Positions 1,840 through 24,335 of a DNA stretch of 64,000 bases are shown one piece after another (within the stretch, counting starts at the first letter, position 1; each line of letters starts with the position of its first letter). Source of the stretch: an uncultured Methanosarcinales archaeon. Lineage in GTDB: Archaea > Nanobdellota > Nanobdellia > Woesearchaeales > GW2011-AR4. The stretch spans positions 2,544 through 66,543 of the forward strand of contig CAZPFO010000003.1 in the NCBI GenBank assembly GCA_964585935.1, written 5' to 3'. Made by a program: the position numbers and the translations under genes. The notes under the pieces were generated by a model. That model worked only from the letters and a program-made list of their open reading frames with translations. It made no database searches and had not been told where the DNA came from.

Positions 1840-1850
1840 ATTTAAAATGA

Positions 1851-4949: not shown

Positions 4950-4953
4950 TTGA

Positions 4954-8018: not shown

Positions 8019-8052
8019 TAAATACTATTTAAATCATTTTATTTTTTAACAA

Positions 8053-9261: not shown

Positions 9262-9269
9262 GGGGGTAT

Positions 9270-10151: not shown

Positions 10152-10171
10152 AATTATTTTAAGATCAAAAT

Positions 10172-11248
10172 CTACCTGGTGACCTCAAAATTCTTGATAT
10201 CTTCAGCTAATTTTTGTGCTGTTTTGTTTTTCTCTAATGTTTTTCTCACTGGATATATTAAATTGTTTAATTCTTCTCCAACTGATTGCTTTAAATCCAT
10301 CGGATGCACTTTCTTTTGCGAGAACCTTTTCTCCAGATCTTCATAAGAACCGAATTCCAGATTTCCGCCCCATTTTTTTGGTCTTTCTATTTTTAATGTC
10401 TTATTCTTTTCAAAAATTATATATTTGCAATATTCTAAAATTGGATTTTCCTCAACAACACCTTCAGGGCAATATGCTTTGTTGATCTTTCTTTTTATAT
10501 CTTCTTTTGAATCAGACATGAATATTGCAGTATCCGGCCTGCTTTTGCTCATTTTTAGTTGAATTCCTCTTTCAGCGCCCTTTAAGCTGCTTTTAGGCGG
10601 TTGCCCCAGCCCCATAAGCATATGATGGCTCACAACAACAGGTTTGTAAAATCCTAATTTAGGTCCTAATTCTCTTGCTAGTACACTGACTTTTCTCTGG
10701 TCCATGCCTAATTGGCATATATCAACCTCTAACTGGAAAATATCAGCTGCCTGCATACATGGATAAAATATCTGGGATGCTTGTAATACTTCACTTTCAC
10801 TTCTCCCCATTATCTGACCGCATCTTATTATTCTTTTTACAGTGGAATTTCTTGATATCTGCATTACCTTTTTCCAATAGCCCTCATTGTTAACTAAATC
10901 AGAAACCCATAGAAACTCGACCTTATCATCCATACCACATGCTTTCCACACTTCAATTAAATATTTGCCAACCTTCTGGATATTTTCCAAGTTTCCTTCT
11001 AACTTATTATTCGCCCAGGCATGCCAGTCTGCAACTAAAATCTTGAACTTACACCCAGCCTTAACCATCTTATTGATGTTTATAGCTCTCAGAAGCCCTT
11101 GTGCAATATGAATATCCGTTCCAGAAGGCTCAAACCCATCATAAGCTATTGGATTTTTCTTTTTGATCAGAAGTTGTTTCAGCTCCTCTTCTGTTATGAT
11201 TTCCTCTCCAACTTCTTTGATTAGGCTGATTCTTTTGTTAATATCCAT
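10172..11248 (-). CDS. tyrS: tyrosyl-tRNA synthetase (archaeal type)
   Basis: AYDGFEPSGTDIHIAQGL (HIGH-region equivalent), ADWHAWANNK and KMSKS (LKMSKSRP). Confidence 0.85.
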   Translation of the reverse strand: MDINKRISLIKEVGEEIITEEELKQLLIKKKNPIAYDGFEPSGTDIHIAQGLLRAININKMVKAGCKFKILVADWHAWANNKLEGNLENIQKVGKYLIEVWKACGMDDKVEFLWVSDLVNNEGYWKKVMQISRNSTVKRIIRCGQIMGRSESEVLQASQIFYPCMQAADIFQLEVDICQLGMDQRKVSVLARELGPKLGFYKPVVVSHHMLMGLGQPPKSSLKGAERGIQLKMSKSRPDTAIFMSDSKEDIKRKINKAYCPEGVVEENPILEYCKYIIFEKNKTLKIERPKKWGGNLEFGSYEDLEKRFSQKKVHPMDLKQSVGEELNNLIYPVRKTLEKNKTAQKLAEDIKNFEVTR

Positions 11249-11270
11249 ATTAAGGAAAAAATAGGATGAT

Positions 11271-11280
11271 ATTTATTAAA
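11271..11280 (-). promoter_or_regulatory. TATA box for tyrS (leaderless)
   Basis: The minus strand reads TTTAATAAAT, centred about 27 nt upstream of the tyrS ATG at 11248. Confidence 0.45.
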
Positions 11281-11312
11281 AGTTTTTGGTTTTTGGTTAA
11301 AGAATCAATAGT

Positions 11313-11984
11313 TTATCCGATTTTACAATTATCAACCCATTTACAATACTCACACTCTCCTTTATCTTTAGGCATTTCTCCACTAAGAACTTTTAAGGCT
11401 TTTTTGAATATCTTTTCTGCATTTTCAATGCTGATCTTCATCTTCACTAAATCTGTGTTGAAAACAACATTTCCATTTTTATTAACCTTATCAGGATGAT
11501 AAAACAATAGATAAGCATAATCTTCTGTATCATAACCATTTTTCCTCAATAAAAAATTATAGATGTCTAATTGTTCTTGATAATGCTCATGAGTGTCTTC
11601 CTTTAAAGGGTATCCCCTTGTTTTATAGTCCAAAACTATTAATTTATTTCCTTTCACCAGAATATTATCTACTGCTCCTCTGAATAAATTCCCTTCTTTA
11701 TCTTTCCATTGGATGCCTTTGAAGTTGTTTCTCCATACTTCCAGCAGTTCTTTATCATCAAAGAGCTTTAACCCATCGCAGTCTTTATTTTCGCACAATT
11801 CAGGAGGCAATTCTCCTTTTTCCATATAGCTGTCAAAATGAGTCTTAAGGATCTTATCCATTCCACTTGGTAAAGAAGGAAATATTCCTGCTGGCCTTTT
11901 GATTTTCTTGTTAAAATGCAGCCAGAAACATCTAGGGCAGTCTTTTAGAATGCTTAAAGATGAATGGCTGAATTTAAATGGCAT
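11313..11984 (-). CDS. PD-(D/E)XK Cas4/RecB-like nuclease with Fe-S Cys cluster
   Basis: GAVDNI..VLDYKT (D..DxK core), QLDIY (QxxxY), N-terminal CPRC and C-terminal CEYCKWVDNC (C-x2-C-x5-C). Confidence 0.7.
   Translation of the reverse strand: MPFKFSHSSLSILKDCPRCFWLHFNKKIKRPAGIFPSLPSGMDKILKTHFDSYMEKGELPPELCENKDCDGLKLFDDKELLEVWRNNFKGIQWKDKEGNLFRGAVDNILVKGNKLIVLDYKTRGYPLKEDTHEHYQEQLDIYNFLLRKNGYDTEDYAYLLFYHPDKVNKNGNVVFNTDLVKMKISIENAEKIFKKALKVLSGEMPKDKGECEYCKWVDNCKIG
11887..11948. repeat. left copy of a perfect 62-bp inverted repeat (within the 5' end of the nuclease gene)
   Basis: The reverse complement of 11887..11948 is identical to 23378..23439 (CTAAAAGACTGCCCTAGATGTTTCTGGCTGCATTTTAACAAGAAAATCAAAAGGCCAGCAGG). 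Confidence 0.9.
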
Positions 11985-12027
11985 GGTTATTAGTTATGAG
12001 GGGGTTTTAAATAGTTTTTGTTGGATT

Positions 12028-12060
12028 TTCCACTGGACATCCTCGCGTAAGGTATATAAA
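12028..12060 (+). repeat. direct repeat A (TTCCACTGGACATCC..CGTAA..TATATAAA), left island boundary
   Basis: About 29 of 33 positions are identical to 23454..23486. A related third copy lies at 22517..22547, in the same orientation. Confidence 0.85.
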
Positions 12061-12101
12061 GGAGGTCGCATATTATATATTTAACCTAGTATATGACGTA
12101 C

Positions 12102-12130
12102 TTTTACGAAAAGTTTATAAATACGTAAAA
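12102..12130 (+). promoter_or_regulatory. promoter of the TA operon: TATA flanked by a 7-bp inverted repeat
   Basis: TTTATAAATA at 12114..12123 lies about 25-30 nt upstream of the start codons at 12146-12155. Arms TTTTACG (12102..12108) and CGTAAAA (12124..12130) bracket it, a possible antitoxin operator. Confidence 0.4.
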
Positions 12131-12145
12131 CCTACTTATTGCTAG

Positions 12146-12406
12146 GTGATGAGGATGAATGTGGAAACAGCTAAAATGTCAGAAAGAGGGCAGATAATCA
12201 TACCTAAGGAAATAAGGTCTGAAGTTGGAGCTTTAGAAAATACAATTTTTGCATTAAGCAGTATTGATAAAGATACAATAATCATGAAGAAATTAAACAC
12301 AAATGCTCTTGTGAATGAATTTAGAAGATTTAGGAATAAGTCTAAGAAGCTGTCTCCTTTTAGGATAGAGGAAGAGGTAAATGCGGCAAGAAAAAGTCGT
12401 TCTTGA
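12146..12406 (+). CDS. AbrB/SpoVT-fold antitoxin (VapB-like)
   Basis: MSERGQIIIPKEIR is the classic SpoVT/AbrB swapped-hairpin motif. The gene overlaps the PIN gene by 26 nt. GTG at 12146, with in-frame ATGs at 12149 and 12155. Confidence 0.7.
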   Translation: MMRMNVETAKMSERGQIIIPKEIRSEVGALENTIFALSSIDKDTIIMKKLNTNALVNEFRRFRNKSKKLSPFRIEEEVNAARKSRS

Positions 12407-12782
12407 CACGAATATAATAATATCTGCAGCTATTTCTTTGGATGGAAAACCAGCTAGGATCTTTGAACTTTTTTTGAATGGTGATTTAGTTAATTATTCT
12501 TCAAAAGAGATCATTGAAGAAGTTACTGAGGTTATCTCAAGGCCATTTTTTGGAATATCTGAAGAATATAGAGATTTTATTATTTCTAATCTAAAAGATA
12601 AGTCGATTATAATAAAACCGTCTTTCAATGAAGAGATCATTACTGAAGATGTTTCTGATAATAAGTTCATTAATTGCGCTTTATCAGCTAAAGCCTGCAT
12701 TATTTCTGGAGATAGACATTTGCTTAAGTTAAGAATATATAAAGGAGTTCGCGTTTTTAGCGCAACTGAGTTTTTAAAATGA
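12381..12782 (+). CDS. PIN-domain toxin (VapC-like)
   Basis: N-terminal VVLDTNIIISA with later acidic residues (EDVSDNKF, ISGDRHL). Paired with the upstream AbrB-fold gene. Confidence 0.7.
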   Translation: MRQEKVVLDTNIIISAAISLDGKPARIFELFLNGDLVNYSSKEIIEEVTEVISRPFFGISEEYRDFIISNLKDKSIIIKPSFNEEIITEDVSDNKFINCALSAKACIISGDRHLLKLRIYKGVRVFSATEFLK

Positions 12783-13444
12783 AAATTAAGGAAATTGCCC
12801 TAGACCAAAGGCCAAGGGAGAGATTAAAGGCAAATGGAGTAGAGTCTTTATCAGATTCAGAGCTGCTTGCGATTTTGCTGCAGAATGGCACTTTTGGAGA
12901 AAATGTAATAGATATGAGCAACAGGCTTATTTCTTCATTTGGGCTTGAAAAGCTGAATAGCTTAAGCTTAAAGGAAATAATGAAAATAAAAGGAATAGGT
13001 CCTGCAAAGGCTTCTAAACTATTGGCTTCATTTGAGCTTTCTAAAAGAGTAAATTCTGGAAAGATCTGCGAGAAAGTTGTTAAAAATTCTTCTGACATTG
13101 CTAAATATTACATGGAGAAATTAAAGGATAAGAAGAAAGAATACTTTATTGCTGTGTTTTTAGATTCCAAAAACAAAATCATAAAGGATGAAGTGATTTC
13201 AATCGGAACTTTAAATTCTTCATTAGTACATCCAAGAGAGGTGTTTAAGGAAGCTATAAAGAACTCTGCTAATTCAATTATTTTAGTGCATAATCATCCA
13301 AGTGGGGATTGTGAGCCGTCAAATGAAGATATCAAAATAACACAAAAATTAACAGACGCAAGTAATATGTTAAATATACAATTCTTAGACCATATAATTC
13401 TAGGAGATAATTATTGGAAAAGTGTGAAAGCACACCCCTTATAA
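12779..13444 (+). CDS. radC: RadC-like JAB/MPN domain protein
   Basis: HNHPSGDCEPSNED metal motif and an N-terminal HhH-like LSDSELLAILL. ATGA overlap with the PIN gene. Confidence 0.8.
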   Translation: MKIKEIALDQRPRERLKANGVESLSDSELLAILLQNGTFGENVIDMSNRLISSFGLEKLNSLSLKEIMKIKGIGPAKASKLLASFELSKRVNSGKICEKVVKNSSDIAKYYMEKLKDKKKEYFIAVFLDSKNKIIKDEVISIGTLNSSLVHPREVFKEAIKNSANSIILVHNHPSGDCEPSNEDIKITQKLTDASNMLNIQFLDHIILGDNYWKSVKAHPL

Positions 13445-14923
13445 TTTAAGATCTTCTAGAATCTTAATTATTTTTTTTTCATTATCAAGTATTTTCTTTT
13501 TTATTACTTCTGGCTTATCATATTTTACTTCTTCATATTCAATTTCTTTATACTTAGAAATACTTAAGTCATAATTATTTTCTTTAATTTCTTCAAATGG
13601 AACAAAAAAACATTTTCCTTTTCTATCAGAAGGTGTTTCCTTGGTTCTTATTTTAAACTGTTTTATAATATCTGGAATATCATCTTTTTCTATTTTTGTC
13701 CTTTTGTCATCAAGGCTAAAACCATCGTTTTCCATATCATAAAACCAAACATCTTTAGTGGGTTCTCCTTTTGTAAACATCAAAATACCTGTGCTTACTC
13801 CTGCATAAGGCTTAAAAACACCTGAAGGCATGGATATGACTACATCAAGCCTGCATTTTTCTAAAAGCAGTTTTCTAACTTTTTTATGGGCATTTGAATT
13901 TCCAAATAAAACACCATCTGGAACAATTACAGCACATCTCCCACTATTATTAAGAATATTAAACATCAATTCTAAAAATAATATTTCTGTTTTTTTAGTT
14001 TTTATTGTGAAGTTTTCATTTAGCTCAGATTCATCAACACTTCCCTTAAATGGGGGATTTGCAAGAACGATATCATAATACCCTTGTTGATTATATCTTG
14101 TAGATAAAGTATTTATCTGTTTGATATTGGGCCTATGGATTCCATGCATCATAAGATTCATCAAAGACACTCTAGTCATCACAGGATCAAAATCAAAGCC
14201 GTTTAGAGTACTTTCTCTTAATACTTTGTGTTGGTTATCATTTAGTTTGTCCCCAACAAAATTGTATTCGTTTCCTTCTTCATCTTTTTTTATTAATTCT
14301 TTTGAAGTGTTGTTTTTTAATATGTGTTCGTAAGAACTGACTAAGAACCCCGCAGTTCCACAAGCAGGATCGCAAATATTTTCTCCATATTTTGGTTCCA
14401 ATAATTCAACCATCATTTTAATTATGTGCCTTGGAGTTCTGAATTGCCCGTTTTTGCCTGCTGTCTTTAATTCTGACAATAAATATTCGTATAGATCTCC
14501 TTTTGTATCCCTATTTTGCTCTTTTATATGCATGCTGTTGATAATTTTAACTGCTTCTATTAGCAAAGAAGCTGTTGGGATGTTAAAAACAGAGTCTTTC
14601 ATATAAGTTGCATATAATGAATCTTCTCCTCCTAAATTTCTTAAAAAAGGAAATACCTTGTCTCTAACATGGTCTAGTATTTTATCAGCATTATATTCTG
14701 TCCACACAGACCATTTGCAGTTAGTATTGTCTTCGAATATGGATATATGTTTTTTCCCTAATAATTTTGCATCCTGCTCTTTTCTTATATCTTCATCTTC
14801 TAACCGTTTCATAAAGATTAAGTAAGACATTTGTTCTATTGCCTGCAATGGATTGCTAATTCCACCGCTCCAAAACTTATCCCATAATTGGTTTATTTTT
14901 GATTTTAGATTTGTGTCTAGCAT
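13439..14923 (-). CDS. hsdM: type I R-M N6-adenine DNA methyltransferase subunit
   Basis: Motif I DPACGTAGFL, motif IV LANPPFKG, and an N-terminal HsdM helical domain. Confidence 0.9.
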   Translation of the reverse strand: MLDTNLKSKINQLWDKFWSGGISNPLQAIEQMSYLIFMKRLEDEDIRKEQDAKLLGKKHISIFEDNTNCKWSVWTEYNADKILDHVRDKVFPFLRNLGGEDSLYATYMKDSVFNIPTASLLIEAVKIINSMHIKEQNRDTKGDLYEYLLSELKTAGKNGQFRTPRHIIKMMVELLEPKYGENICDPACGTAGFLVSSYEHILKNNTSKELIKKDEEGNEYNFVGDKLNDNQHKVLRESTLNGFDFDPVMTRVSLMNLMMHGIHRPNIKQINTLSTRYNQQGYYDIVLANPPFKGSVDESELNENFTIKTKKTEILFLELMFNILNNSGRCAVIVPDGVLFGNSNAHKKVRKLLLEKCRLDVVISMPSGVFKPYAGVSTGILMFTKGEPTKDVWFYDMENDGFSLDDKRTKIEKDDIPDIIKQFKIRTKETPSDRKGKCFFVPFEEIKENNYDLSISKYKEIEYEEVKYDKPEVIKKKILDNEKKIIKILEDLKL

Positions 14924-14938
14924 TTTATCCCTCCCCGA

Positions 14939-15313
14939 TTATAGTCCTTCCATAAGTAAAATTATCCCAATAATTAAAGAGCCACCAATTCTTAAAATCC
15001 ACCTATTTTGTTGGACTAACTCTTCAAACCACTTAATTTTGCTGATTCTACCATCAGTAATATATGATAAAAAACTCCATGTAGCTAACGTAAAAAAAAC
15101 TATTGAAATAATTCCTATCCATATTTTAACATTTTCCTTAATTCCAAAATAAGATATTAAAGTAACTGAATTCAAAAAGAATGTTAACCTGCTTGTATAT
15201 TTTGTTTCTATGAAAAGCCCGACCAGTAAAAGCGCGACTGCCGGCAGTAAAGCAATATATTCCAACCTAAACCCAGGTATAATCATAAAAAAAGATTGAA
15301 TTAGGTTAGTCAT
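14939..15313 (-). CDS. small four-helix membrane protein embedded in the R-M operon
   Basis: 124 aa with about 4 hydrophobic segments (YIALLPAVALLLVGLFI, LTFFLNSVTLISYFGI, IWIGIISIVFFTLATWSFL, IGGSLIIGIILLM). Its ATG overlaps the hsdS stop by 4 nt. Confidence 0.55.
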   Translation of the reverse strand: MTNLIQSFFMIIPGFRLEYIALLPAVALLLVGLFIETKYTSRLTFFLNSVTLISYFGIKENVKIWIGIISIVFFTLATWSFLSYITDGRISKIKWFEELVQQNRWILRIGGSLIIGIILLMEGL

Positions 15314-16449
15314 ATTATCAATTCCCCTTTGAAAGCTTTTTGCATCAAAGCATTAAATAAGTTGTCAATCTGATTTTTTGAATGTTTCTGTTGCTCTTTC
15401 ATAGCTTCAACTTCTTTAACAATTGAAGCGAATTTGTTTTGGAGTGAGGTTGGGGGGAAAATTATTTTGAAATCAGAGATTTGTCTTGAATTTAAGTGTG
15501 GTTGTCCAGCTCTTCTTGAAAGTGTTTTTATTATTGCCCTACTACTTCCTAAATTTAGCAACTCATTTAAAAAAACTGAATTCAAAATATCATTATTTAG
15601 ATGAAATATAATATCATACCCACCATATGATCCAACATATTTTTTTGTAACTACGGCACAATCCCCTGTGTTTACACCACTTCTAACAATAATCAAATCA
15701 TTTTCCTTAAGTTTACATTTTTCAATTTTTTTAGCTTCATCTTTATTTATATATAATATGCCATTTTCAATAATTCTACCTTGTTTAATGTTTGTTGCTC
15801 GAATAAACTTGATCCCTTCTTTAACATATTCGGGAGGGGAACCAGTTCCATATTTTATTTCAGTTAGATTGTCTCCTATTGTTGAATTGTTCCATCTTTG
15901 CTCATTCTTTATTGGATCTCCAAACATCTCCAAGAAAACACTTTTCAAAAAATCCTTAGTCAATTCATCTGTTTCTTTTCGCAGTTCTTTTGCTTTTTCT
16001 GCTTTTTCTAGGATTGAGACTATTTTTTTCTGGATTTCTTTATTTTCTGGATAATATACTTTAATATCCTGAATATATCCTTTAGAAATATGTTTCAATC
16101 CAGCACCTTTAAACCCTTCTTCTAGAAGATAAATTTTCCCATATAAATAATAATAAACATATTTCGCTATTATTTTGTCTTTTACTTTAACAATAAAACA
16201 ATCTGTGCTTGTTGAAAATTTTTCATTGCAATAATGAATCCCTGCATGTCCGCCAGTTGCAAAGATTAAATATTCTCCATCCTGAGTGTATTCATCAATA
16301 AATTTGGTTTGCTTATCGCTAGATGTAAAAAATTTATATTTACCTTTGTTTAAGCCTTCTCCTGCCTTTATCTTTGATTTTTTTTGAAAGTCAAATACTT
16401 CACCAAGTTCAACTTCTTTCCATCCTTCTGGTAATTTTTGTTTATTCAT
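15310..16449 (-). CDS. hsdS: type I R-M specificity subunit
   Basis: Two target-recognition halves separated by conserved helices (..LKSVFLEMFGDP.. and C-terminal ..LFNALMQKAFKGEL). Confidence 0.85.
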   Translation of the reverse strand: MNKQKLPEGWKEVELGEVFDFQKKSKIKAGEGLNKGKYKFFTSSDKQTKFIDEYTQDGEYLIFATGGHAGIHYCNEKFSTSTDCFIVKVKDKIIAKYVYYYLYGKIYLLEEGFKGAGLKHISKGYIQDIKVYYPENKEIQKKIVSILEKAEKAKELRKETDELTKDFLKSVFLEMFGDPIKNEQRWNNSTIGDNLTEIKYGTGSPPEYVKEGIKFIRATNIKQGRIIENGILYINKDEAKKIEKCKLKENDLIIVRSGVNTGDCAVVTKKYVGSYGGYDIIFHLNNDILNSVFLNELLNLGSSRAIIKTLSRRAGQPHLNSRQISDFKIIFPPTSLQNKFASIVKEVEAMKEQQKHSKNQIDNLFNALMQKAFKGELII

Positions 16450-16450
16450 T

Positions 16451-17185
16451 TTATTTTATATTCTCTTCTGCAAAATCAATCATTTCTTTTAATATTTTTA
16501 AAACTTCTTTTGGATTTTCATTTTTATAATCTTCAGAATAAAGATATCTTGCTGAATCCCTTAAGTTTGACAATTTAGATAAAGTTTCACTAAACTCAAT
16601 CTTAACATTCCCCAAATTTGCCCAATTCTGAAATTTATTCAGTCTATCTTTGTGATTTCTTCCAGTAAGAATCTTATTATCTGCCAACATCAATAAAACA
16701 CTTTTAGCAGATAGTTCAGCAGAAGCAAAAGCATTTTCAAAAAATGGTCTTAATCTACACTTATCTGAGTTTTCTTTTGCACTTTCATAAAATTCTTTAG
16801 AAGCTTTAATATGTTCTTTGATTATTTCTTTGTTATATCTTGCATCAAATGAGATTATCCAATTATTTTTAAATACCAATAAAGTAATATGGGAACAATT
16901 AACATCCTCGCCGGTTAATTTTACATTTTTAATTTTATCAATATCCTTCTCGTAAACTACTTCCCCTTTGTTTATTTGTTTATTGGATTTACATTCAACA
17001 ATTGCTTTAACTTGTTCATTTAATCTTATTCTATTTTTTCTATTTAATGAAAAGATTATTTGGACTTTAGAAATAACAAAATCATCTTTAATTTTTCCAA
17101 ATTTTCTTCTTCTCTCTACCTCAGGTTTCACCCAAATATCCATTACTTGCTGAAAAATTTTTTGTCCAATATTTTCTTCGTTCAT
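16451..17185 (-). CDS. two-domain protein with C-terminal HEPN-like helical domain
   Basis: The C-terminal about 130 aa show the HEPN-like pattern AELSAKSVLLMLA..GRNHKDRLNKF..LSNLRDSARY. The N-terminal about 110 aa are unassigned. A clear R-x4-6-H motif was not seen. Confidence 0.45.
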   Translation of the reverse strand: MNEENIGQKIFQQVMDIWVKPEVERRRKFGKIKDDFVISKVQIIFSLNRKNRIRLNEQVKAIVECKSNKQINKGEVVYEKDIDKIKNVKLTGEDVNCSHITLLVFKNNWIISFDARYNKEIIKEHIKASKEFYESAKENSDKCRLRPFFENAFASAELSAKSVLLMLADNKILTGRNHKDRLNKFQNWANLGNVKIEFSETLSKLSNLRDSARYLYSEDYKNENPKEVLKILKEMIDFAEENIK

Positions 17186-17556
17186 AATCCATTCCCCAAC
17201 ATTTTACTTGGTATTGAAACAGAATCTTTTTTCTTTTTCTTAATAGCTGACGTTCTTTCCTCCAGAGATTTATCTAAAACCTTCTTCAGATCTTCTAAAT
17301 ATTCAGCAGATAAATCTTTTAAAATATTGATTTCCTCATTAGAATCAAGAATAACATCCCAATCAAAAGTATCTTTTCCTTTGTCATAAGAAATAATGTT
17401 TTTTCCAGCAATATTCTGTGGAATAGGAACTTTAATCTCATGTAAAAGTAGATCTCTAATTAAAGATGCAGGAGTAGCGCCTTTTTTTTCACAGTAAGAT
17501 TTAACTAACATTGCTTCATGCACAGTCAGCTTTGTTGAAACGGATTTGAAGTTCAT
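17182..17556 (-). CDS. ribbon-helix-helix-like small protein
   Basis: N-terminal strand-helix-helix pattern STKLTV-HEAMLVKSYCEKKG-TPASLIRDLLLHEI. Its stop overlaps the HEPN-like gene start by 4 nt. Confidence 0.45.
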   Translation of the reverse strand: MNFKSVSTKLTVHEAMLVKSYCEKKGATPASLIRDLLLHEIKVPIPQNIAGKNIISYDKGKDTFDWDVILDSNEEINILKDLSAEYLEDLKKVLDKSLEERTSAIKKKKKDSVSIPSKMLGNGL

Positions 17557-17578
17557 GGTGATTGGAAATTGAAGCTCA

Positions 17579-17586
17579 TTTATATA
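17579..17586 (-). promoter_or_regulatory. TATA box for the RHH/HEPN/hsdS/hsdM transcription unit
   Basis: The minus strand reads TATATAAA, centred about 26 nt upstream of the ATG at 17556. Confidence 0.45.
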
Positions 17587-17600
17587 CTTTTCTGTTTTTC

Positions 17601-17622
17601 ATGGTCAACCTAAGTTGACCAT
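17601..17622. promoter_or_regulatory. perfect palindrome ATGGTCAAC-N4-GTTGACCAT (candidate operator)
   Basis: 9-bp arms with a 4-nt spacer, 15-35 nt upstream of the TATA of the RHH-like gene. Confidence 0.45.
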
Positions 17623-17745
17623 ATTATCAAGCCATTATTAAAAGAAAAGTTTATATACTTACAATCTTATTACCTTATTAACGAGTAAGTCATGCTGAAC
17701 GGATGACGGCTCAGGATTGAGCTCAGGACAAATAAGCATGGTTCG

Positions 17746-18402
17746 TTATTTTTTCTTGAATAAATCATTTTTCTCGATAATAACTTTATCCTTAAATAAG
17801 TTTATGTAAGATTCACAATCTCCCTTTTGCTTGGCAGTATTATACTTATAACCAAAGGCTCCGCATATAAAATCAGTCACTTGCAGTCCTGGATGCCCCG
17901 CTGAACTAACATGCACTACGTTAATCTTAGGCACTTTATTGAAAAGATACACGAATTCTGTCTCGATATATGCTCTAAAATTTTCCATTTGGTTTTTAGA
18001 CATGCATTTATCAAGGTAAATAGTTAAATTATTGGAGATATCAATTTCTTTAAGAGGTTTTTCAAGCAGAATCTTCAAAAGATAATTGTAAAGAATTGGC
18101 AAATTATCCCTTAATTCATTATTTGTATACTCTTTTTTTATTATCAATGAAAATACTTGCAGATCTAGATCTTTTAATCTTGATAGGTATCTTTCTCTGA
18201 TTAAAGGTGAAGAATTTGTAAATTTCAATTCAAATCCCTTTTTATATTTCTTTTTCAAGGTTCTTTGCCTGACTTTCTTTGGGATTCTTAAAAATGCTAC
18301 ATTATCTTTTTCATTATCAATCTTAGCGCAGGTTATTATAAAATAGTTGCTTCCCTTTTCAAAACCCAAATCACCACTCTCATCGATATATAAATAGCCC
18401 AT
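17746..18402 (-). CDS. DUF3800-like protein
   Basis: The N-terminus MGYLYIDESGDLG is the hallmark DUF3800 start motif. The gene starts 1 nt after the hsdR stop. Confidence 0.6.
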   Translation of the reverse strand: MGYLYIDESGDLGFEKGSNYFIITCAKIDNEKDNVAFLRIPKKVRQRTLKKKYKKGFELKFTNSSPLIRERYLSRLKDLDLQVFSLIIKKEYTNNELRDNLPILYNYLLKILLEKPLKEIDISNNLTIYLDKCMSKNQMENFRAYIETEFVYLFNKVPKINVVHVSSAGHPGLQVTDFICGAFGYKYNTAKQKGDCESYINLFKDKVIIEKNDLFKKK

Positions 18403-18403
18403 T

Positions 18404-21124
18404 TTATCTCATTCTTATTTCATTGCACTTCTCTACTATAACCTTTAATTCAGACTCTTCGAATTTATCTAAAGGCCTTTCATCAGAAAGCGGAGATTTT
18501 GCAAAATCAGCAAGTTCAATTTTCTTATGATTTGAGAAAAACTTCTTAAGAAGAAGTAAGAATTCAATTTGCTCATAATTGTATTTTGGATCCATTATGT
18601 GTTTATGAAACTCTCTTTCAATAATCTCTTGAGGGTCATATTCATGTGTTAATCCAATTATTTGATATATAAACACTAAAAAGTCCTTATTTAGCTGGTT
18701 TTGTATATTCTCAATAGAGTAAGCAGGATTTAAAGCTGTTAGTTGTTTTTCAAGGTGTACAATCTCTTTTGAGGTTATGCTTCCTCCGCTCTTTATTTTT
18801 TGTAATATAGGATTATTTTTAACAAATTCCTCAAATTTTGAATCATGTTGTATTTCATAATCTACCTCTTCTTCCCTTATAATCATATCAGGAGCATCAA
18901 CCCTTACCATCTTTTTAGGCAATGGTTCATAGTATTTCATCAAAGGAGCAATCTCTTTAATTAGAAATTCAACTTTCTCGAATGTAAGGTCATCCCAATA
19001 ACTTTCCTGTAACACTTTTAATATGTCCTTTTTCTTATTCTGGATTTCAGAAAGAGAATCTTTCAAAAGAATATTATTAAGCATCTCCCACACATAATTC
19101 TTAATTTTTTCAATTTTATGCTGCTCAGATTTTATTATATGTTTGAATAATTTTTCAGTTTGCAATATGAATGAAGTTATATTAGCATTATCTCCTTGAT
19201 TTAAAATCATTAATGGAGCGATATCTGAAAGAAGTCCTCTGACATATTTCTCCAGATCAAATGTTTTTCCAATTTTGGTTAATAAAGGTAGTTTATCCCT
19301 AATTACAAATGAATCTTTATCAAGACTTTTTATATCCCAAATAAGTTTATCCACTATAATCTTTTTCTGTTCATTACTTAGTTTTTCTTTTAATAGATTA
19401 ACACGATTTTCAAAAATAGATACCATAACATTCTTGCCAGAATCTTTATCTTTTGATTGTTTAATTTTATGAACCTTAATGTTTGAATGGCCCCCAATTA
19501 CAAAATCTAATACTAAAAAATCATTTTTCTCTCTATGCTGCAGCCATTCAGGATGCTTACAAGCATCCAAATTTCTAGTTCCCCTTCCCATCATTTGCCA
19601 AAATCTAATTGAAGAAAAAACAGGCCTTGCAAAAACTAGATTACAAACTTCAGGAATATCAACCCCCGTATCTAACATTCCAACACTTAAAGCAATCCTT
19701 GGCTCTGAATTTAGCTTAAATCTCCTTATCTCATCTTGAGCCCTATATTCATCAGAAGTTATAACTTGTACTTCCTTGCTTAGTTTAGGAAACAATTCTC
19801 CAAATATTTTTTTTATTGCTTTAGCGTGGTTTTTTCCAACACAGAAAAATATGGTTTTTGCTGGGAGATTTTCATCAGACCTGTAACATCTATTAACAAA
19901 TTCGGCGACAATAATCTCATTAATTCTTCTGTCAACAAACACTTTCTCATACTTAGAACCTTCAATTTCAAAACTTTCAGGATCAATTTCCTGCTTTCTT
20001 AACTGATCTTTTAGATCTTCACTCAATTTTTGACCCTTAATGCCTAACTCCAACCGTTCTGTTTCAATTATTTTACCCTTATACGGAACCAAGATCCCAT
20101 CATTAACTGCATCATCATAACTGTACTCAATAGTGGGTTCCCCCCTTTTACATCCAAATAAATCATAAGTGTTTTTGCTCTCATGTTGTCTAGGTGTTGC
20201 AGTTAATCCAACCTTTATTGCATCAAAATACATATTTACATAATTATTTTTATCATAAATTGATCTATGGGCTTCATCAAATATAATCAAGTCAAAAAAA
20301 CCCGGGCTGAATTTCTCAAACATAGTTTTTCCTTTCTTCCCCATCAATGTTTGAATTGTTGAAGTATAAAGCCTTGCAGTAGTTGAAAAACCCTTTATGT
20401 GTAATTCAACTGTAGGCTCTCCCCTAAAAAATTCCTTAAAACCATCTGAACTAGCCTGATTTGCTAAAATAATCCTATCAGCGATAAATAAAACATTCCT
20501 AACATAATTTGCTTTTTTTAATATATCAATCAAAGCCATGGCTAATCGTGTTTTTCCAGTTCCAGTAGCCATTTGAACTAATGCCTTCCCATAACCTTTT
20601 GAGAAATGCTCTGCAAGCTGTTTTACAAACAGGATATTTTTAGGCCTCTTATCTCCCATTATTCTTGGGTTGACTGGAATTTTTGAAGGATCTTTCTGAT
20701 TATTGTAAAGCTCCTTTCTTCTTTTCAAATCTTCTTGCGAAAAAACTCCACTAACTATTCTTTCAATTTCATCTTGATCTTTGTAAATCCATTTTATACC
20801 ATTTGTTAAAAACATAGGTAATCTATAATTGAGCTGTTTTTCAATATCTTTAACATAAGTTCTAGATTGAATAGTACCTGTATCCGGCTCTTTAGAAGGT
20901 TTTTTAACTTCAATTATCGCTAAAGGGGTAAAATCTTCTGCCAACAAAAGATAATCTATAAATCTATCTACTCCTTTTTCTATACTCGGGCCTTTTAAGA
21001 CATAATCTTTATTTTTAAAATTTGACTTAACAGAATTAACTTCTTCTTTTATATATTCTTTTAACCAACCAGCTTTCTTTAGTTGTTTATCAATCAGGTT
21101 TTTCCTTGTTGTTTGTTCATCCAT
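18404..21124 (-). CDS. hsdR: type I restriction enzyme R subunit (helicase-nuclease)
   Basis: N-terminal HsdR-type nuclease region, Walker A MATGTGKT, DEAH box IIFDEAHRS, motif VI QMMGRGTR, and a long C-terminal helical tail. Confidence 0.9.
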   Translation of the reverse strand: MDEQTTRKNLIDKQLKKAGWLKEYIKEEVNSVKSNFKNKDYVLKGPSIEKGVDRFIDYLLLAEDFTPLAIIEVKKPSKEPDTGTIQSRTYVKDIEKQLNYRLPMFLTNGIKWIYKDQDEIERIVSGVFSQEDLKRRKELYNNQKDPSKIPVNPRIMGDKRPKNILFVKQLAEHFSKGYGKALVQMATGTGKTRLAMALIDILKKANYVRNVLFIADRIILANQASSDGFKEFFRGEPTVELHIKGFSTTARLYTSTIQTLMGKKGKTMFEKFSPGFFDLIIFDEAHRSIYDKNNYVNMYFDAIKVGLTATPRQHESKNTYDLFGCKRGEPTIEYSYDDAVNDGILVPYKGKIIETERLELGIKGQKLSEDLKDQLRKQEIDPESFEIEGSKYEKVFVDRRINEIIVAEFVNRCYRSDENLPAKTIFFCVGKNHAKAIKKIFGELFPKLSKEVQVITSDEYRAQDEIRRFKLNSEPRIALSVGMLDTGVDIPEVCNLVFARPVFSSIRFWQMMGRGTRNLDACKHPEWLQHREKNDFLVLDFVIGGHSNIKVHKIKQSKDKDSGKNVMVSIFENRVNLLKEKLSNEQKKIIVDKLIWDIKSLDKDSFVIRDKLPLLTKIGKTFDLEKYVRGLLSDIAPLMILNQGDNANITSFILQTEKLFKHIIKSEQHKIEKIKNYVWEMLNNILLKDSLSEIQNKKKDILKVLQESYWDDLTFEKVEFLIKEIAPLMKYYEPLPKKMVRVDAPDMIIREEEVDYEIQHDSKFEEFVKNNPILQKIKSGGSITSKEIVHLEKQLTALNPAYSIENIQNQLNKDFLVFIYQIIGLTHEYDPQEIIEREFHKHIMDPKYNYEQIEFLLLLKKFFSNHKKIELADFAKSPLSDERPLDKFEESELKVIVEKCNEIRMR

Positions 21125-21344: not shown

Positions 21345-22061
21345 TTATTTCTCAAGCACATCTACAAAATTAAATTCAGGAATACCCTCCCCAATAAGTT
21401 TATATCTTCTATGTTCTCTAAATGGTAAGTCTTTAATCAATGAATGATCTAATCTTTCTTGTTCAGCCCAATATAATCCCTCTTTTCCTTTTTCTGTCGT
21501 TTCATTCCCCCAAATCATTGTATAACAAATCACAATTCCACCTTCTTTTAGTACTCTTGCTTTGTTTTCTAAACCCATTCTAATTGCAGCATTACTTCGT
21601 TGTTTTAGTATTCCACCCCCATCCCAATAAGTTGGCACTAAAAAATCACTACTTGCAGTAATATCAAAAGATTGGTCTGGAAATTGAAGTGCCATTGCAT
21701 TCATAACTTGAACATCCAAACCACCCTTCTTACCTTCAATAATGTAATCATCATTAATATCAATTCTAATAACTTTAAATCCTAAAGTTTCAAGAATTTT
21801 TACGCTTAAACCATAACCACATGCAATGTTAAGAACCTCTCCAGTTTTCCCTTCTTTTTCTAATACGGGAATTAATGGAAAATGATTTATGAGTTGGTGA
21901 TATATTCTAAAATTTTGTTGTTCTTTCTCGGATAGAGTAGACACATCAACATTACCATCAATAATTTTCTTATATTCAAGTACACTTTCTGATTGCAATT
22001 TATTAGATATATCCCTGTGTCTATCTTCATCAATCCTTAACTCAACATCTACGCAATTCAT
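21345..22061 (-). CDS. class I SAM-dependent methyltransferase (orphan)
   Basis: Motif I LNIACGYGLS followed by the acidic IRIDIND. The substrate is not inferable. Confidence 0.6.
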   Translation of the reverse strand: MNCVDVELRIDEDRHRDISNKLQSESVLEYKKIIDGNVDVSTLSEKEQQNFRIYHQLINHFPLIPVLEKEGKTGEVLNIACGYGLSVKILETLGFKVIRIDINDDYIIEGKKGGLDVQVMNAMALQFPDQSFDITASSDFLVPTYWDGGGILKQRSNAAIRMGLENKARVLKEGGIVICYTMIWGNETTEKGKEGLYWAEQERLDHSLIKDLPFREHRRYKLIGEGIPEFNFVDVLEK

Positions 22062-23507: not shown

Positions 23508-24335
23508 ATGAACATTTCTGTTTCATTGCTTTCAGCTTACCAATACTGCCCAAGAAAGATATTCTTAGAGCGTGTCTTGAAACTTTACGAGCCTCCAAAA
23601 GAAGCATTACTTCTGGGAACAATAAGGCATGAAATATATGAATTAATCAACAACAAGGAAGAAGAAATTGTCACAAATATCCAAGAAAAAACATCTAATG
23701 AAGAATTAGAGACCACATACAAAAACATATATTCAAAAATTCTAAGGAACGTTATTATCAAGCACAAGGAAAACCTGAAACAGTTTGAAGTAAACATAAA
23801 CGAACTTTTCAAAAGAATTCAACCATTGATACAAAACGAAGCAAAAAACAGGTCAAATAACATATCAATCTTCATAAATAAACACAATATCTTCGGCAAA
23901 GAACTATGGGAAAAGCTAACCCCTAAGATACAGTCAGAAATAAAGATAAGATCAGCAACCCTAAACCTGACAGGAATAATTGACCAGCTGGAAATCTACG
24001 AAGATAGCTTTACCCCAATCGAATTAAAGACAGGAAAAGCCCCAAAAGAAGGAGCATGGCCCGGCCATAAGATACAGATTGCAGCATATGCTATGTTATT
24101 AGAAGAAAAGCACAACACCAAAATAAAAGAAGGCTTCATACACTATCTTGATATAAATGAACGTAGACATATCCCGATAAACATCTTCCTAAAAGAAGAG
24201 ATAATTCAATTAATAGAAAAAGTAAAAACCTTGCTGCAAAGCAAAACCATACCAGACTTCTGCAATAATAAAAACAAATGCAATGTATGCGGCCTAAGAA
24301 CCAGCTGTTACGATAAAAAACTAAAAGTTCCTTAA
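23508..24335 (+). CDS. cas4: Cas4-family PD-(D/E)XK exonuclease with 4-Cys cluster (stand-alone)
   Basis: N-terminal YQYCPRKIFLE, core IIDQLE..IELKTGK, and C-terminal CNVCGLRTSC (C-x2-C-x5-C). No CRISPR array or other cas genes in the window. Confidence 0.7.
   Translation: MNISVSLLSAYQYCPRKIFLERVLKLYEPPKEALLLGTIRHEIYELINNKEEEIVTNIQEKTSNEELETTYKNIYSKILRNVIIKHKENLKQFEVNINELFKRIQPLIQNEAKNRSNNISIFINKHNIFGKELWEKLTPKIQSEIKIRSATLNLTGIIDQLEIYEDSFTPIELKTGKAPKEGAWPGHKIQIAAYAMLLEEKHNTKIKEGFIHYLDINERRHIPINIFLKEEIIQLIEKVKTLLQSKTIPDFCNNKNKCNVCGLRTSCYDKKLKVP

What the first reader, a model, noticed from the sequence alone, without database searches (positions are those of the whole stretch)
13439..21124. 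Type I R-M operon interrupted by four tightly coupled non-R-M genes: candidate composite defence system
On the minus strand the order is as follows. hsdR (18404..21124) is followed after a 1-nt gap by a DUF3800-like gene (17746..18402). Then comes a 189-nt spacer with its own TATA and a perfect 9-bp-arm palindrome. Next is the RHH-like gene (17182..17556), which overlaps the HEPN-like gene (16451..17185) by 4 nt. After a 1-nt gap comes hsdS (15310..16449), which overlaps a 4-TM protein gene (14939..15313) by 4 nt. After a 15-nt gap comes hsdM (13439..14923). A canonical type I system needs only R, M and S. Here every junction between a canonical subunit gene and an insert is 15 nt or less, or overlapping, so the extra genes must be co-expressed, and probably co-translated, with the R-M subunits. 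HEPN domains are typically RNase effectors of abortive-infection and toxin systems. Small multi-TM proteins are common Abi effectors, and DUF3800 has no established function. The arrangement suggests a type I R-M backbone wired to a second-line, abortive or sensor module. I am not aware of this specific five-to-seven-gene architecture having been described.
Basis: partly seen in the sequence, partly recalled or inferred. Interest (0 to 1): 0.8.

Follow-up and report, generated by a model that had tools for sequence, protein, structure and literature searches.

The report
Restriction operon carrying swappable defence inserts
A DNA-restriction (type I R-M) operon of a tiny DPANN archaeon carries three exchangeable add-on modules and its own regulator gene; this is a rich example of the known habit of defence genes nesting inside restriction operons, not a new fixed seven-gene system.

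Summary
DUF3800 and HEPN are confirmed. RHH is plausible. The small protein has 3-4 TM segments.

Related DPANN loci show a conserved backbone, hsdR | RHH-hsdS-hsdM, with three cargo slots.
- One orthologous locus has all slots empty.
- Others carry DUF3800 plus RNA and the 4-TM gene but no HEPN.
- Others carry unrelated genes in the same slots.

The RHH gene is the operon's leader gene. A clade-specific palindrome lies just upstream of a TATA box at -30, so it is most likely a controller and not a HEPN antitoxin.

The 244-aa HEPN protein belongs to a large family: a novel N-terminal domain plus HEPN-T, with at least 868 clusters. It is translationally coupled to type I, II, IIG and III R-M genes in 15 of 21 loci.

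The 'composite system' reading is therefore only partly supported. These are independent embedded modules, a known phenomenon (PrrC; Payne 2024; Anantharaman 2013). I score it as a new variant of a known kind, with moderate interest.

The parts
18404..21124 (-). hsdR, type I restriction subunit (906 aa), EcoAI/EcoEI-like. First gene of transcription unit 1.
   Evidence: Pfam ResIII 1.8e-30, EcoEI_R_C and HSDR_N; PADLOC REase_I 2.4e-97. The NCBIfam EcoAI-family match is below its cut-off. GTGKT at 188 and DEAH at 283. A TATA-like TTTAAATA lies about 45 nt upstream of the ATG.
17746..18402 (-). DUF3800 protein (218 aa), an RNase H-fold nuclease family. This is the slot A cargo, 1 nt after hsdR.
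   Evidence: PF12686 at 1.1e-14; PADLOC PDC-M04A at 4.9e-10; RT-DUF3800 (DRT VII) at 8e-7; phrog_9243 at 5e-15. The D7-E8 and Q174xxD177 motifs are conserved in homologues. The RNase H fold is taken from PMC10910872 and PMC12669027.
17679..17748 (+). DUF3800-X small RNA gene, convergent with the DUF3800 gene and overlapping its stop codon by 3 nt.
   Evidence: Rfam RF02984 at 60.3 bits against a gathering score of 38.2, E 1e-10. The same convergent arrangement occurs in L015, L044 and L038. RNAalifold predicts 19 pairs, 8 with compensatory changes.
17650..17657 (+). TATA box (TTTATATA) about 22-26 nt upstream of the sRNA 5' end. Putative sRNA promoter.
   Evidence: Read directly from the sequence. 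It is conserved in position in L015 and L038. Its function is inferred.
17749..17757 (+). T-run (TTTTTTCTT) directly after the closing helix of the sRNA. Putative terminator.
   Evidence: Sequence. It is conserved in L015. Its function is inferred.
17640..17649 (-). CTTTTCTTTT run on the minus strand. Putative terminator of the hsdR-DUF3800 transcript, which would then carry the full antisense of the sRNA in its 3' UTR.
   Evidence: Sequence. Inference only.
17601..17622 (.). Perfect inverted repeat ATGGTCAAC-TTAG-GTTGACCAT. Putative operator of the RHH protein.
   Evidence: The positional equivalents are GGTTAAC-N5-GTTAACC (L015, L043, L044), GTAAAC-N4-GTTTAC (L012) and AGGTGTA|TACACCT (L006; imperfect in L023). 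In the loci with a -30 TATA the repeat ends 35-44 nt before the RHH ATG.
17579..17586 (-). TATA box (TATATAAA) 30 nt upstream of the RHH ATG. Promoter of transcription unit 2, giving a leaderless or near-leaderless transcript.
   Evidence: A TATA-like box sits at -30 in the window, L015, L043, L012 and L006.
17182..17556 (-). RHH-like regulator (124 aa). It is the leader gene of the hsdS-hsdM operon and part of the backbone, not cargo.
   Evidence: Homologues lie directly 5' of hsdS, or of slot B cargo, in L012-14, L015-18, L042, L043 and L044. Short 57-60 aa versions occur in L006 and L023. The profile matches NikR 2bj1 at E=0.014. There is no Pfam, PADLOC or NCBIfam hit.
16451..17185 (-). 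Two-domain protein (244 aa): a novel N-terminal alpha+beta domain (residues 1-118) plus a C-terminal HEPN-T domain (119-243). This is the slot B cargo.
   Evidence: PF05168 at 9.6e-6. AF2 pLDDT 91; Foldseek matches 2hsb (TMt 0.79), 2q00, 4nqf and 1o3u. The N-domain has no PDB fold match. The family has 868 representatives. R26, N56 and H178 are invariant; E157, R209, R213 and Y214 are nearly invariant.
15310..16449 (-). hsdS, specificity subunit (379 aa, two TRDs).
   Evidence: Pfam Methylase_S 3e-33 with two stretches; PADLOC Specificity_I 1.1e-61.
14939..15313 (-). Small membrane protein (124 aa, 3-4 TM segments). This is the slot C cargo.
   Evidence: Hydropathy. Four homologues at 50-68% identity. 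It follows hsdS in the window, L015-18 and L045, and follows a PD-(D/E)XK nuclease gene in L046/47. No family hit, apart from a sub-threshold NCBIfam match to a small membrane protein model (NF033853, 16.4 bits against a cut-off of 33).
13439..14923 (-). hsdM, N6-adenine methyltransferase subunit (494 aa).
   Evidence: Pfam N6_Mtase 4e-67 and HsdM_N; PADLOC MTase_I 5.7e-175. NPPF at 289. 75% identical to the L013 orthologue.

Best explanation
This is an intact type I (EcoAI/EcoEI-like) restriction-modification locus of a DPANN archaeon. It has a conserved backbone and three cargo slots.

Backbone:
- Unit 1 is hsdR.
- Unit 2 is RHH-hsdS-hsdM. It is read from a TATA box 30 nt before the RHH start codon.
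- A clade-specific palindrome abuts that TATA box. The RHH protein most likely binds it and autoregulates the S/M operon. This makes it a functional analogue of R-M controller proteins.

Cargo in this window:
- Slot A (hsdR|RHH) holds a self-contained two-part module. It consists of a DUF3800 RNase H-fold nuclease gene and its cognate DUF3800-X small RNA. The RNA is transcribed convergently from its own TATA box and ends at a T-run.
- Slot B (RHH|hsdS) holds a two-domain protein: a novel N-terminal domain plus a HEPN-T domain. Its family rides translationally coupled inside type I, II, IIG and III R-M operons.
- Slot C (hsdS|hsdM) holds a small 3-4-TM membrane protein.

Shown: the gene structure, the domain identities, the RNA, the slot variability in orthologous loci and the R-M linkage of the HEPN family.

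Inferred:
- The cargo modules are independent second-line defences that borrow the R-M operon's expression.
- The HEPN protein acts like PrrC. It would be a latent RNase kept silent by, or sensing through its N-domain, the co-translated R-M enzyme, and released when restriction is blocked or overwhelmed.
- DUF3800 is a nuclease controlled or guided by its RNA.
For: Observation and domains.

Organism: homologues carry names of Nanoarchaeota, Pacearchaeota and Woesearchaeota MAGs.

Modularity:
- L012-14 are hsdR-56 nt-RHH-hsdS-hsdM, with HsdM 75%, HsdR 59% and RHH 47% identical to the window.
- L015-18 are DUF3800-RNA-RHH-hsdS-4TM-hsdM, with no HEPN.
- L044 is hsdR-DUF3800-RNA-RHH-256aa-95aa-hsdS-112aa(TM)-52aa(TM)-hsdM.
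- L042, L023 and L006 carry yet other cargo.
- L043 keeps only a decayed RNA remnant and has no DUF3800 gene.

RHH as controller:
- It is always the first gene after the promoter.
- An inverted repeat followed by a TATA box at -30 is found in five loci.
- The half-sites track the RHH clade. They are GGTNAAC for the 124-136 aa clade (GTAAAC in L012) and AGGTGTA for the 57-60 aa clade.
- Both arms change together between the window (GGTCAAC/GTTGACC) and L015 (GGTTAAC/GTTAACC).

HEPN and R-M linkage across 21 distinct loci:
- 4 type I.
- 3 type III.
- 4 type II (MTase plus HNH).
- 4 MmeI-like.
- 6 with no R-M gene identified.
- With a generous 5% chance of adjacency, the binomial P is about 1e-15.

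Family size and conservation.

DUF3800 plus RNA as an autonomous unit:
- The same convergent pair occurs on a viral contig where no neighbour matched any Pfam family (L038).
- Compensatory changes support the RNA structure.
- A G-U pair in L015 and the flanking TATA box and T-run fix the strand.

Literature: embedding in R-M loci, and the PrrC-type guard model for R-M-linked HEPN, are established ideas (PMC3710099, PMC12707154, 10.1101/2024.01.29.577857).
Against: - No expression, binding or phenotype data exist for any part.
- The HEPN domain lacks a conserved Rx4-6H motif. R209 is nearly invariant, but the position 7 residues downstream of it is H in only some members and Y in the window. 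RNase activity is therefore unproven. The only invariant His is H178.
- RHH identity is not statistically established.
- Six of 21 HEPN loci show no R-M neighbour. Some of these are short contigs or have unannotatable neighbours.
- Only a handful of orthologous type I loci were recovered. The RHH-anchored metagenome scan gave 5, so the slot statistics are small.
- Slot C holds a membrane protein in every locus where it is filled. This could mean the slot C product is a functional partner of the R-M enzyme and not independent cargo.
Confidence: 0.6

Rival explanations
1. First reader's reading. The seven genes form one obligate composite defence system. The DUF3800, RHH, HEPN and 4-TM proteins would work physically with HsdR, HsdM and HsdS as a wired sensor-effector machine.
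For: - All junctions are overlapping or at most 15 nt.
- The HEPN family is nearly always coupled to R-M genes.
- Slot C holds a membrane protein in all six orthologous or related type I loci where it is filled.
- TM proteins are enriched within three genes of HEPN: 32 of 104 against 29 of 202, Fisher P=0.0013, by a crude hydropathy method.
Against: - Close orthologous R-M loci lack all cargo (L012-14). Others carry subsets or unrelated cargo.
- HEPN occurs with type II, IIG and III R-M systems that have no DUF3800, RHH or 4-TM gene.
- DUF3800 plus RNA occurs without an identifiable R-M gene nearby on a viral contig.
- The 4-TM family also follows a PD-(D/E)XK nuclease gene.
Confidence: 0.12
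2. RHH-HEPN is a type II toxin-antitoxin (addiction) pair that merely stabilises the locus. RHH would be the antitoxin and autorepressor, and HEPN the toxin.
For: - The two genes overlap by 4 nt in antitoxin-then-toxin order.
- A palindromic operator lies upstream.
- HEPN domains are common toxins (PMC3710099).
Against: - The same RHH family sits directly 5' of hsdS with the same ATGA overlap where no HEPN exists (L012-14, L015-18).
- HEPN-244 occurs without any RHH in type II, III and IIG loci and in L028.
- In L006 and L023 other ORFs separate RHH and HEPN.
Confidence: 0.1
3. The HEPN-244 protein is a non-catalytic accessory or regulatory subunit of R-M enzymes, not a suicide RNase. It might bind a nucleotide or nucleic acid and modulate restriction or modification, for example in restriction alleviation or assembly.
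For: - There is no conserved canonical Rx4-6H motif.
- Some HEPN domains are non-catalytic binders (abstract of PMC3710099).
- It is coupled to methyltransferase genes as often as to nuclease genes.
- It was not found in the IMG/VR viral contigs.
Against: - The polar constellation E157/H178/R209/R213/Y214 is invariant or nearly invariant across 89 members at 25-53% identity to the window protein. This fits an active site. [quoted passage not shown]
- R-M systems of four different types, which share no common subunit, carry the gene. That is hard to reconcile with a specific structural subunit.
Confidence: 0.15

Closest known systems
PrrC / EcoprrI (anticodon nuclease embedded in a type IC R-M locus) and the RloC/Rlo genes of Campylobacter type I loci
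   Same: A HEPN-superfamily gene sits inside a type I hsd operon and is co-expressed with it. The guard model, in which an RNase is unleashed when restriction is inhibited, is the best available analogy (PMC12707154, PMC3710099).
   Different: HEPN-244 has no ABC-ATPase N-domain. It has instead a 118-aa alpha+beta domain with no Pfam or PDB match. Its HEPN domain is of the HEPN-T (PF05168) type. It is linked to type I, II, IIG and III systems and is archaeal. No trigger or target is known.
'Guilt-by-embedding' candidates of Payne et al. 2024 (PADLOC HEC/PDC systems), in particular PDC-M04
   Same: These are genes nested in type I R-M, BREX, DISARM or Hma operons. The window's DUF3800 protein hits PDC-M04A (4.9e-10). 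PDC-M04 is a two-gene cassette listed with a count of 679.
   Different: No neighbour hits a second PDC-M04 component. The partner here is an RNA (DUF3800-X), not a protein. HEPN-244, RHH and the 4-TM protein have no PADLOC model.
DUF3800-associated RNA motifs (Weinberg et al. 2017; Rfam RF02984 DUF3800-X)
   Same: The RNA matches the family model above its gathering score and lies next to a DUF3800 gene (PMC5737381).
   Different: Added here:
- an archaeal TATA box and T-run bracket a transcript of about 70 nt;
- the orientation is convergent, with a 3-nt overlap of the stop codon, in the window, L015 and L044, and convergent 9 nt downstream of the gene in L038;
- the pair sits inside an R-M operon;
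- the RNA has decayed where the gene is lost (L043).
The function is still unknown.
HEPN-MNT toxin-antitoxin systems (HepT/MntA; PADLOC PDC-M05)
   Same: Same HEPN fold. Foldseek also lists 7ae6 and 7bxo, although with weak E-values of about 0.05 to 0.25.
   Different: There is no nucleotidyltransferase partner or domain. The N-domain is not an NTase by Pfam or fold search.
Controller (C) proteins of type II R-M systems, and RptR
   Same: A small DNA-binding protein is encoded first in the operon, with a palindromic operator at its own promoter. RptR shows that repressors control R-M and defence islands (PMC12255303).
   Different: The fold is RHH-like, not an HTH. The system is type I. The promoter is archaeal (TATA/BRE). 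There is a C-terminal extension of about 70 aa with a weak NikR-like match.

Membership tests
Type I restriction-modification system | HsdR with an SF2 helicase/translocase core and an N-terminal PD-(D/E)XK nuclease region | tested here: met
   ResIII 1.8e-30, Helicase_C, HSDR_N 26.9 bits against a cut-off of 25.1, EcoEI_R_C; GTGKT at 188 and DEAH at 283.
Type I restriction-modification system | HsdM gamma-class N6-adenine methyltransferase with an NPPF motif and an HsdM_N domain | tested here: met
   N6_Mtase 4e-67, HsdM_N 9e-14, NPPF at 289.
Type I restriction-modification system | HsdS with two target-recognition domains | tested here: met
   Methylase_S 3e-33 with two matched stretches; PADLOC Specificity_I 1e-61.
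Type I restriction-modification system | Restriction and methylation activity with a bipartite recognition site | not testable with these tools
   Needs methylome data or a biochemical assay.
HEPN superfamily | Four-helix up-down bundle fold | tested here: met
   AF2 model with pLDDT 91. Foldseek probability 0.99-1.00 to 2hsb (TMt 0.79), 2q00, 4nqf and 1o3u. PF05168 is above its cut-off.
HEPN superfamily | Conserved Rx4-6H catalytic motif | tested here: not met
   R209 is nearly invariant, but the position 7 residues downstream of it is H in only some members and Y in the window. The invariant His is H178, elsewhere in the domain. This matches the Table 1 note for HEPN-T in PMC3710099.
HEPN-MNT toxin-antitoxin | A cognate minimal nucleotidyltransferase, adjacent or fused | tested here: not met
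   No NTP_transf_2 or Polbeta hit in the protein or its neighbours. The N-domain has no NTase fold match.
PrrC/RloC anticodon nucleases | N-terminal ABC-type ATPase fused to the C-terminal nuclease | tested here: not met
   No ATPase domain. The protein is 244 aa, with a non-ATPase N-domain.
DUF3800 (PF12686) | Profile match above the gathering score, with an N-terminal DE motif and a C-terminal QxxD motif | tested here: met
   55.8 bits against 21. D7-E8 and Q174xxD177 are conserved in homologues.
DUF3800-X RNA (RF02984) | Covariance-model score above the gathering score, next to a DUF3800 gene | tested here: met
   60.3 bits against 38.2. The three-helix structure is recovered independently, with 8 of 19 pairs showing compensatory changes.
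PADLOC PDC-M04 | Both cassette components (A and B) present and adjacent | tested here: not met
   Only PDC-M04A is hit (4.9e-10). No neighbour hits another PDC-M04 model.
Ribbon-helix-helix (CopG/Arc/MetJ/NikR) regulators | N-terminal beta-alpha-alpha DNA-binding motif detectable by profile or structure | tested here: inconclusive
   No Pfam hit. NikR 2bj1 at E=0.014 and AvtR at 0.81. hhalign to CopG and Arc is in register but gives a probability of at most 3%.
Ribbon-helix-helix (CopG/Arc/MetJ/NikR) regulators | A palindromic operator at its own promoter | tested here: met
   The inverted repeat ends 35-44 nt before the ATG, next to the TATA box at -30, in five loci. The half-sites co-vary with the RHH clade. 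Binding itself was not tested.

The most novel reading that the evidence does not exclude
HEPN-244 would be a general guardian of restriction enzymes. Its N-terminal domain, so far undescribed, would dock onto or sense unrelated R-M enzymes of types I, II, IIG and III and switch on a non-canonical HEPN-T RNase when restriction is inhibited. In the same operon, the DUF3800 protein and its convergent sRNA would form an RNA-controlled RNase H-like nuclease defence. One RHH-controlled R-M operon would then deliver three mechanistically distinct second-line defences, including a membrane effector, in an organism group (DPANN) thought to be poor in R-M and CRISPR.
Probability: 0.2. Interest if true: 0.75.

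Novelty: new variant of a known kind. Interest (0 to 1): 0.45.

Why it matters
Defence genes nested in R-M operons are a proven source of new immune systems. This locus gives four concrete, testable leads in archaea, where few defences have been validated.
- A large R-M-linked protein family (at least 868 clusters) with an unknown N-terminal domain and an atypical HEPN active site. It has no PADLOC model and no Pfam model for the N-domain.
- A clean genetic definition (promoter, terminator, orientation) of a DUF3800/DUF3800-X protein-RNA pair. Its function has been an open question since 2017.
- A candidate RHH controller with a defined operator for an archaeal type I R-M operon.
- A recurrent membrane-protein slot between hsdS and hsdM.

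None of these overturns current concepts. Together they make the guard hypothesis for R-M-linked HEPN proteins, and the role of DUF3800 RNAs, experimentally approachable.

Tried and rejected
- PADLOC, NCBIfam and PHROGs gave nothing for HEPN-244 or RHH, and for the 4-TM protein only a sub-threshold NCBIfam small-membrane-protein match.
- The word-index homology search found only 1 RHH homologue and 4 homologues of the 4-TM protein. The RHH-anchored metagenome scan returned just 5 loci.
- IMG/VR scans found no relative of HEPN-244 and no close relative of the window's DUF3800 protein. An RNA-pattern scan gave one true DUF3800-X (L038) and one false match (L039).
- Foldseek of the isolated N-domain against the PDB gave no credible match (best E 0.43, probability 0.08). 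A sequence profile against the PDB hit only the Ika4 and Ika8 entries, over 23 residues, which I take to be spurious.
- The diverse alignment A7 was too divergent for a locus search.
- One Rfam call exceeded the size limit.
- The idea that RHH-HEPN is a toxin-antitoxin pair was considered and rejected on context.
- The idea that the palindrome is significant on its own was rejected, because comparable hairpins occur elsewhere in the window.
- The sigma-70 promoter and terminator scanner was not used, because the organism is archaeal.

Full report
OBSERVATION

The junctions are as described:
- hsdR|DUF3800 is TAA-A-ATG.
- RHH|HEPN is an ATGA overlap.
- HEPN|hsdS is TAA-A-ATG.
- hsdS|4TM is an ATGA overlap.
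- 4TM|hsdM is a 15-nt gap holding GGGGAGGG.

GGGGA Shine-Dalgarno-like motifs precede the HEPN, 4-TM and hsdM genes.

The R-M backbone looks intact:
- HsdR has ResIII, Helicase_C, HSDR_N and EcoEI_R_C domains, with GTGKT at 188 and DEAH at 283.
- HsdS has two Methylase_S stretches.
- HsdM has HsdM_N and N6_Mtase domains with NPPF at 289.

DUF3800 is a clear PF12686 member (55.8 bits). The 244-aa protein passes the Pfam HEPN cut-off (26.2 against 22). A confident AF2 model (pLDDT 91.3) has a C-terminal four-helix domain that Foldseek matches to the HEPN proteins 2hsb, 2q00, 4nqf and 1o3u, with probability 0.99-1.00. The 124-aa 'RHH-like' protein has no family hit. The 124-aa membrane protein has three strong hydrophobic segments and one weaker one.

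The 189-nt 'spacer' is not empty. Rfam places a DUF3800-X RNA (RF02984; 60.3 bits, gathering score 38.2, E 1e-10) at 17679-17748 on the plus strand. It is convergent with the DUF3800 gene and overlaps its stop codon by 3 nt.

One of the two TATA boxes (TTTATATA, 17650-17657 on the plus strand) lies about 22-26 nt upstream of the RNA's 5' end. A T-run (17749-17757) follows its closing helix.

The same gene-then-convergent-RNA arrangement occurs in L015 (59.8 bits), L044 (64.6 bits) and the viral contig L038 (75.5 bits). RNAalifold on the four copies recovers the three-helix Rfam structure, with 8 of 19 pairs showing compensatory changes. A G-U pair in L015 is compatible only with the plus-strand reading.

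Weinberg et al. 2017 (PMC5737381) described eleven DUF3800-associated RNA motifs of unknown function. DUF3800 is now regarded as an RNase H-fold nuclease that accompanies retrons, DRT and Cas12/Cas13 loci (PMC10910872, PMC12669027, PMC8632793).

ORGANISM AND SETTING

Homologues carry names of Nanoarchaeota, Pacearchaeota and Woesearchaeota MAGs, so this is a DPANN archaeon.

The locus lies in a low-GC stretch: 0.27-0.33 between about 12 and 24 kb, against mostly 0.35-0.43 elsewhere in the window. Its neighbours are a PD-(D/E)XK nuclease, an 86-aa ORF plus a PIN protein (VapBC-like), RadC, a SAM methyltransferase and a Cas4-like nuclease.

BACKBONE VERSUS CARGO

The RHH-like protein has few detectable homologues, but their contexts are decisive.
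- In L012-14 the order is hsdR-56 nt-RHH(128 aa)-ATGA-hsdS-hsdM with nothing else. HsdM is 75%, HsdR 59% and RHH 47% identical to the window.
- In L015-18 it is DUF3800-RNA-RHH(133)-hsdS-4TM-hsdM, with no HEPN.
- In L044 it is hsdR-DUF3800-RNA-RHH(136)-256 aa-95 aa-hsdS-112 aa-52 aa-hsdM.
- In L042 it is RHH-186 aa-hsdS-100 aa-hsdM.
- More distant type I loci, L006/L022 and L023, have a 57-60 aa protein that aligns to the RHH N-terminal part. It is followed by other ORFs, HEPN-244, hsdS, a further ORF and hsdM.

RHH is therefore a backbone gene, and there are three slots:
- Slot A (hsdR|RHH).
- Slot B (RHH|hsdS).
- Slot C (hsdS|hsdM).

Each slot can be empty or hold different cargo, and each remains translationally coupled. 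L043 retains only a decayed remnant of the RNA gene, with the central hairpin deleted, and has no DUF3800 gene. This is consistent with loss of the pair as a unit.

REGULATOR

Upstream of the RHH gene, an inverted repeat is followed by a TATA-like box exactly 30 nt before the ATG in the window, L015, L043, L012 and L006. Transcripts would be leaderless or nearly so.

The repeats are:
- ATGGTCAAC-N4-GTTGACCAT in the window.
- GGTTAAC-N5-GTTAACC in L015, L043 and L044.
- GTAAAC-N4-GTTTAC in L012.
- AGGTGTA|TACACCT for the short-RHH clade in L006, and an imperfect copy in L023.

Both arms change together between the window and L015.

A profile of the family weakly matches NikR (2bj1, E 0.014) and the archaeal-virus RHH protein AvtR (E 0.81). 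hhalign puts the predicted strand and two helices in register with CopG and Arc, but without significance.

I conclude, with moderate confidence, that this is an RHH-type autoregulator of the hsdS-hsdM operon. It would be an analogue, not a homologue, of R-M controller proteins.

THE HEPN PROTEIN

It is full-length conserved, at 52-81% identity among the 120 best of 191 hits. Its N-terminal domain (one long helix plus six strands, residues 1-118) has no Pfam model and no PDB fold match.

A profile of the N-domain alone finds 868 cluster representatives in 1.8 billion, 509 of them at E of 1e-10 or better. Most are 240-290 aa with the domain at the N-terminus. Of 89 sampled, 80 carry PF05168 and none carries a Pfam-recognised domain in the N-terminal region.

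Across these 89 (25-53% identical to the window protein):
- R26, N56 and H178 are invariant.
- P21, E22, Q42, R54, H99, T101, E157, R209, R213 and Y214 are nearly invariant.

The canonical Rx4-6H motif is not conserved. This fits the HEPN-T description by Anantharaman et al. ('a conserved H elsewhere'; PMC3710099).

Contexts of 21 distinct loci:
- Type I: the window, L006, L023 and L028. L028 also holds an embedded Shedu-like gene.
- Type III: mod-HEPN-res in L008 and L027, and mod-res-193 aa-HEPN in L009.
- Type II: N6_N4 MTase-HEPN followed by a convergent HNH gene in L021, and the same MTase-HEPN-convergent short ORF arrangement in L020, L032 and L033, whose ORFs were not scanned.
- MmeI-like: L004, L024, L029 and L036.
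- No recognisable R-M gene: six loci.

Junctions to the R-M genes are mostly -4 to +7 nt. Even if 5% chance adjacency is allowed, 15 of 21 gives a binomial P of about 1e-15.

The gene was not found in the IMG/VR viral contigs and has no PADLOC model.

THE MEMBRANE PROTEIN

Its four homologues sit after hsdS (L015-18, L045), after a PD-(D/E)XK nuclease gene with an overlap (L046/47), or in an unresolved context (L019).

The slot C products of L044, L042, L023 and L006 did not match the window's 4-TM protein in the phmmer screens, yet all have TM segments. TM proteins are enriched within three genes of HEPN-244: 32 of 104 against 29 of 202, Fisher P 0.0013. The hydropathy method is crude.

INTERPRETATION

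The structural picture is well supported. A controller-led type I R-M operon serves as a platform for exchangeable, co-translated cargo.

The functional picture is inferred from the families and the literature.
- Embedding of defence genes in type I R-M, BREX, DISARM and Hma loci is established (Payne et al. 2024; PrrC; TgvAB; Rlo genes).
- At least 16 HEPN clades are R-M-linked, and the proposed logic is a PrrC-like back-up RNase (PMC3710099).

I therefore favour three independent second-line modules over one obligate seven-gene machine. They are:
- DUF3800 plus its sRNA.
- HEPN-244 as an R-M guard, with its N-domain as sensor or docking domain.
- A small membrane effector or anchor.

The toxin-antitoxin reading of RHH-HEPN is rejected on context. 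A non-catalytic role for HEPN-244 cannot be excluded.

NOVELTY AND SCORE

The kind, accessory defence genes embedded in an R-M operon, is known. So are the HEPN link to R-M and the DUF3800 link to RNA motifs.

New here:
- the three-slot organisation in DPANN type I loci;
- the RHH and operator control element;
- the definition of a large family combining the N-domain with HEPN-T, linked to all major R-M types;
- the archaeal promoter, terminator and orientation of DUF3800-X;
- the recurring membrane-protein slot.

I rate it a new variant of a known kind, with interest 0.45.

Noticed in passing
window 12146-13444 (+): An 86-aa ORF (12146-12406) overlaps a PIN-domain gene (12381-12782; PIN_3 4.5e-17). 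This looks like a VapBC-type toxin-antitoxin pair. It is followed, with a 4-nt overlap, by RadC/JAB (12779-13444), whose 3' end overlaps the convergent hsdM stop by 6 nt.
   Followed up: partly
window 11313-11984 (-), 21345-22061 (-), 23508-24335 (+); GC profile 12-24 kb: The R-M locus sits in a low-GC stretch (0.27-0.33, against mostly 0.35-0.43 elsewhere in the window). It is flanked by a PD-(D/E)XK nuclease, a SAM methyltransferase and a Cas4-like PD-(D/E)XK nuclease. This suggests a small, horizontally acquired defence island next to a Trp/Tyr-tRNA synthetase gene.
   Followed up: partly
L043 430-480: A decayed remnant of the DUF3800-X RNA gene. Both ends are recognisable, but the central hairpin and the GAACGGATGA region are deleted. 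It lies upstream of the RHH promoter in a locus with no DUF3800 gene, so the RNA seems to decay once the protein gene is lost.
   Followed up: partly
slot between hsdS and hsdM: window 14939-15313; L044 12656-13136; L042 2327-2629; L023 11861-12331; L006 10985-11995: Whenever this slot is filled, it encodes a membrane protein, but from families that did not match one another in the phmmer screens (124, 112+52, 100, 156 and 336 aa). This hints at a functional need for a membrane component in these DPANN type I systems, as an anchor or an effector.
   Followed up: partly
L028 5727-13770: A type I locus with a different gene order: hsdM-99 aa-Shedu-like (SduA_C 2.5e-13)-hsdS-HEPN-244-hsdR. HEPN-244 overlaps both hsdS and hsdR by 4 nt. 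It is a second example of multiple defence cargo in one hsd operon.
   Followed up: no
L008 / L026 (about 1700-15700): A type III mod-HEPN-244-res cassette lies inside what looks like an integrated element: Rep_1 replication protein, phage-type integrase and an adjacent tRNA gene. A 271-aa DUF3800 gene lies 5 kb away and has no detectable Rfam DUF3800 motif.
   Followed up: no
L046 93-1138 and L047: The 4-TM family is also found overlapping the 3' end of a PD-(D/E)XK nuclease gene by 7 nt. Its coupling to nuclease genes is therefore not restricted to hsdS.
   Followed up: no
L038 11910-12622 (IMG/VR viral contig): A DUF3800 gene (210 aa) plus a convergent DUF3800-X RNA (75.5 bits) lie on a predicted viral contig where no neighbour matched any Pfam family. 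The pair is a mobile, self-contained unit.
   Followed up: partly
window 1-64000: No tRNA gene was detected in 64 kb, and DUF3800-X is the only Rfam family found. GC skew is strongly negative over most of the window, which tracks minus-strand coding.
   Followed up: no
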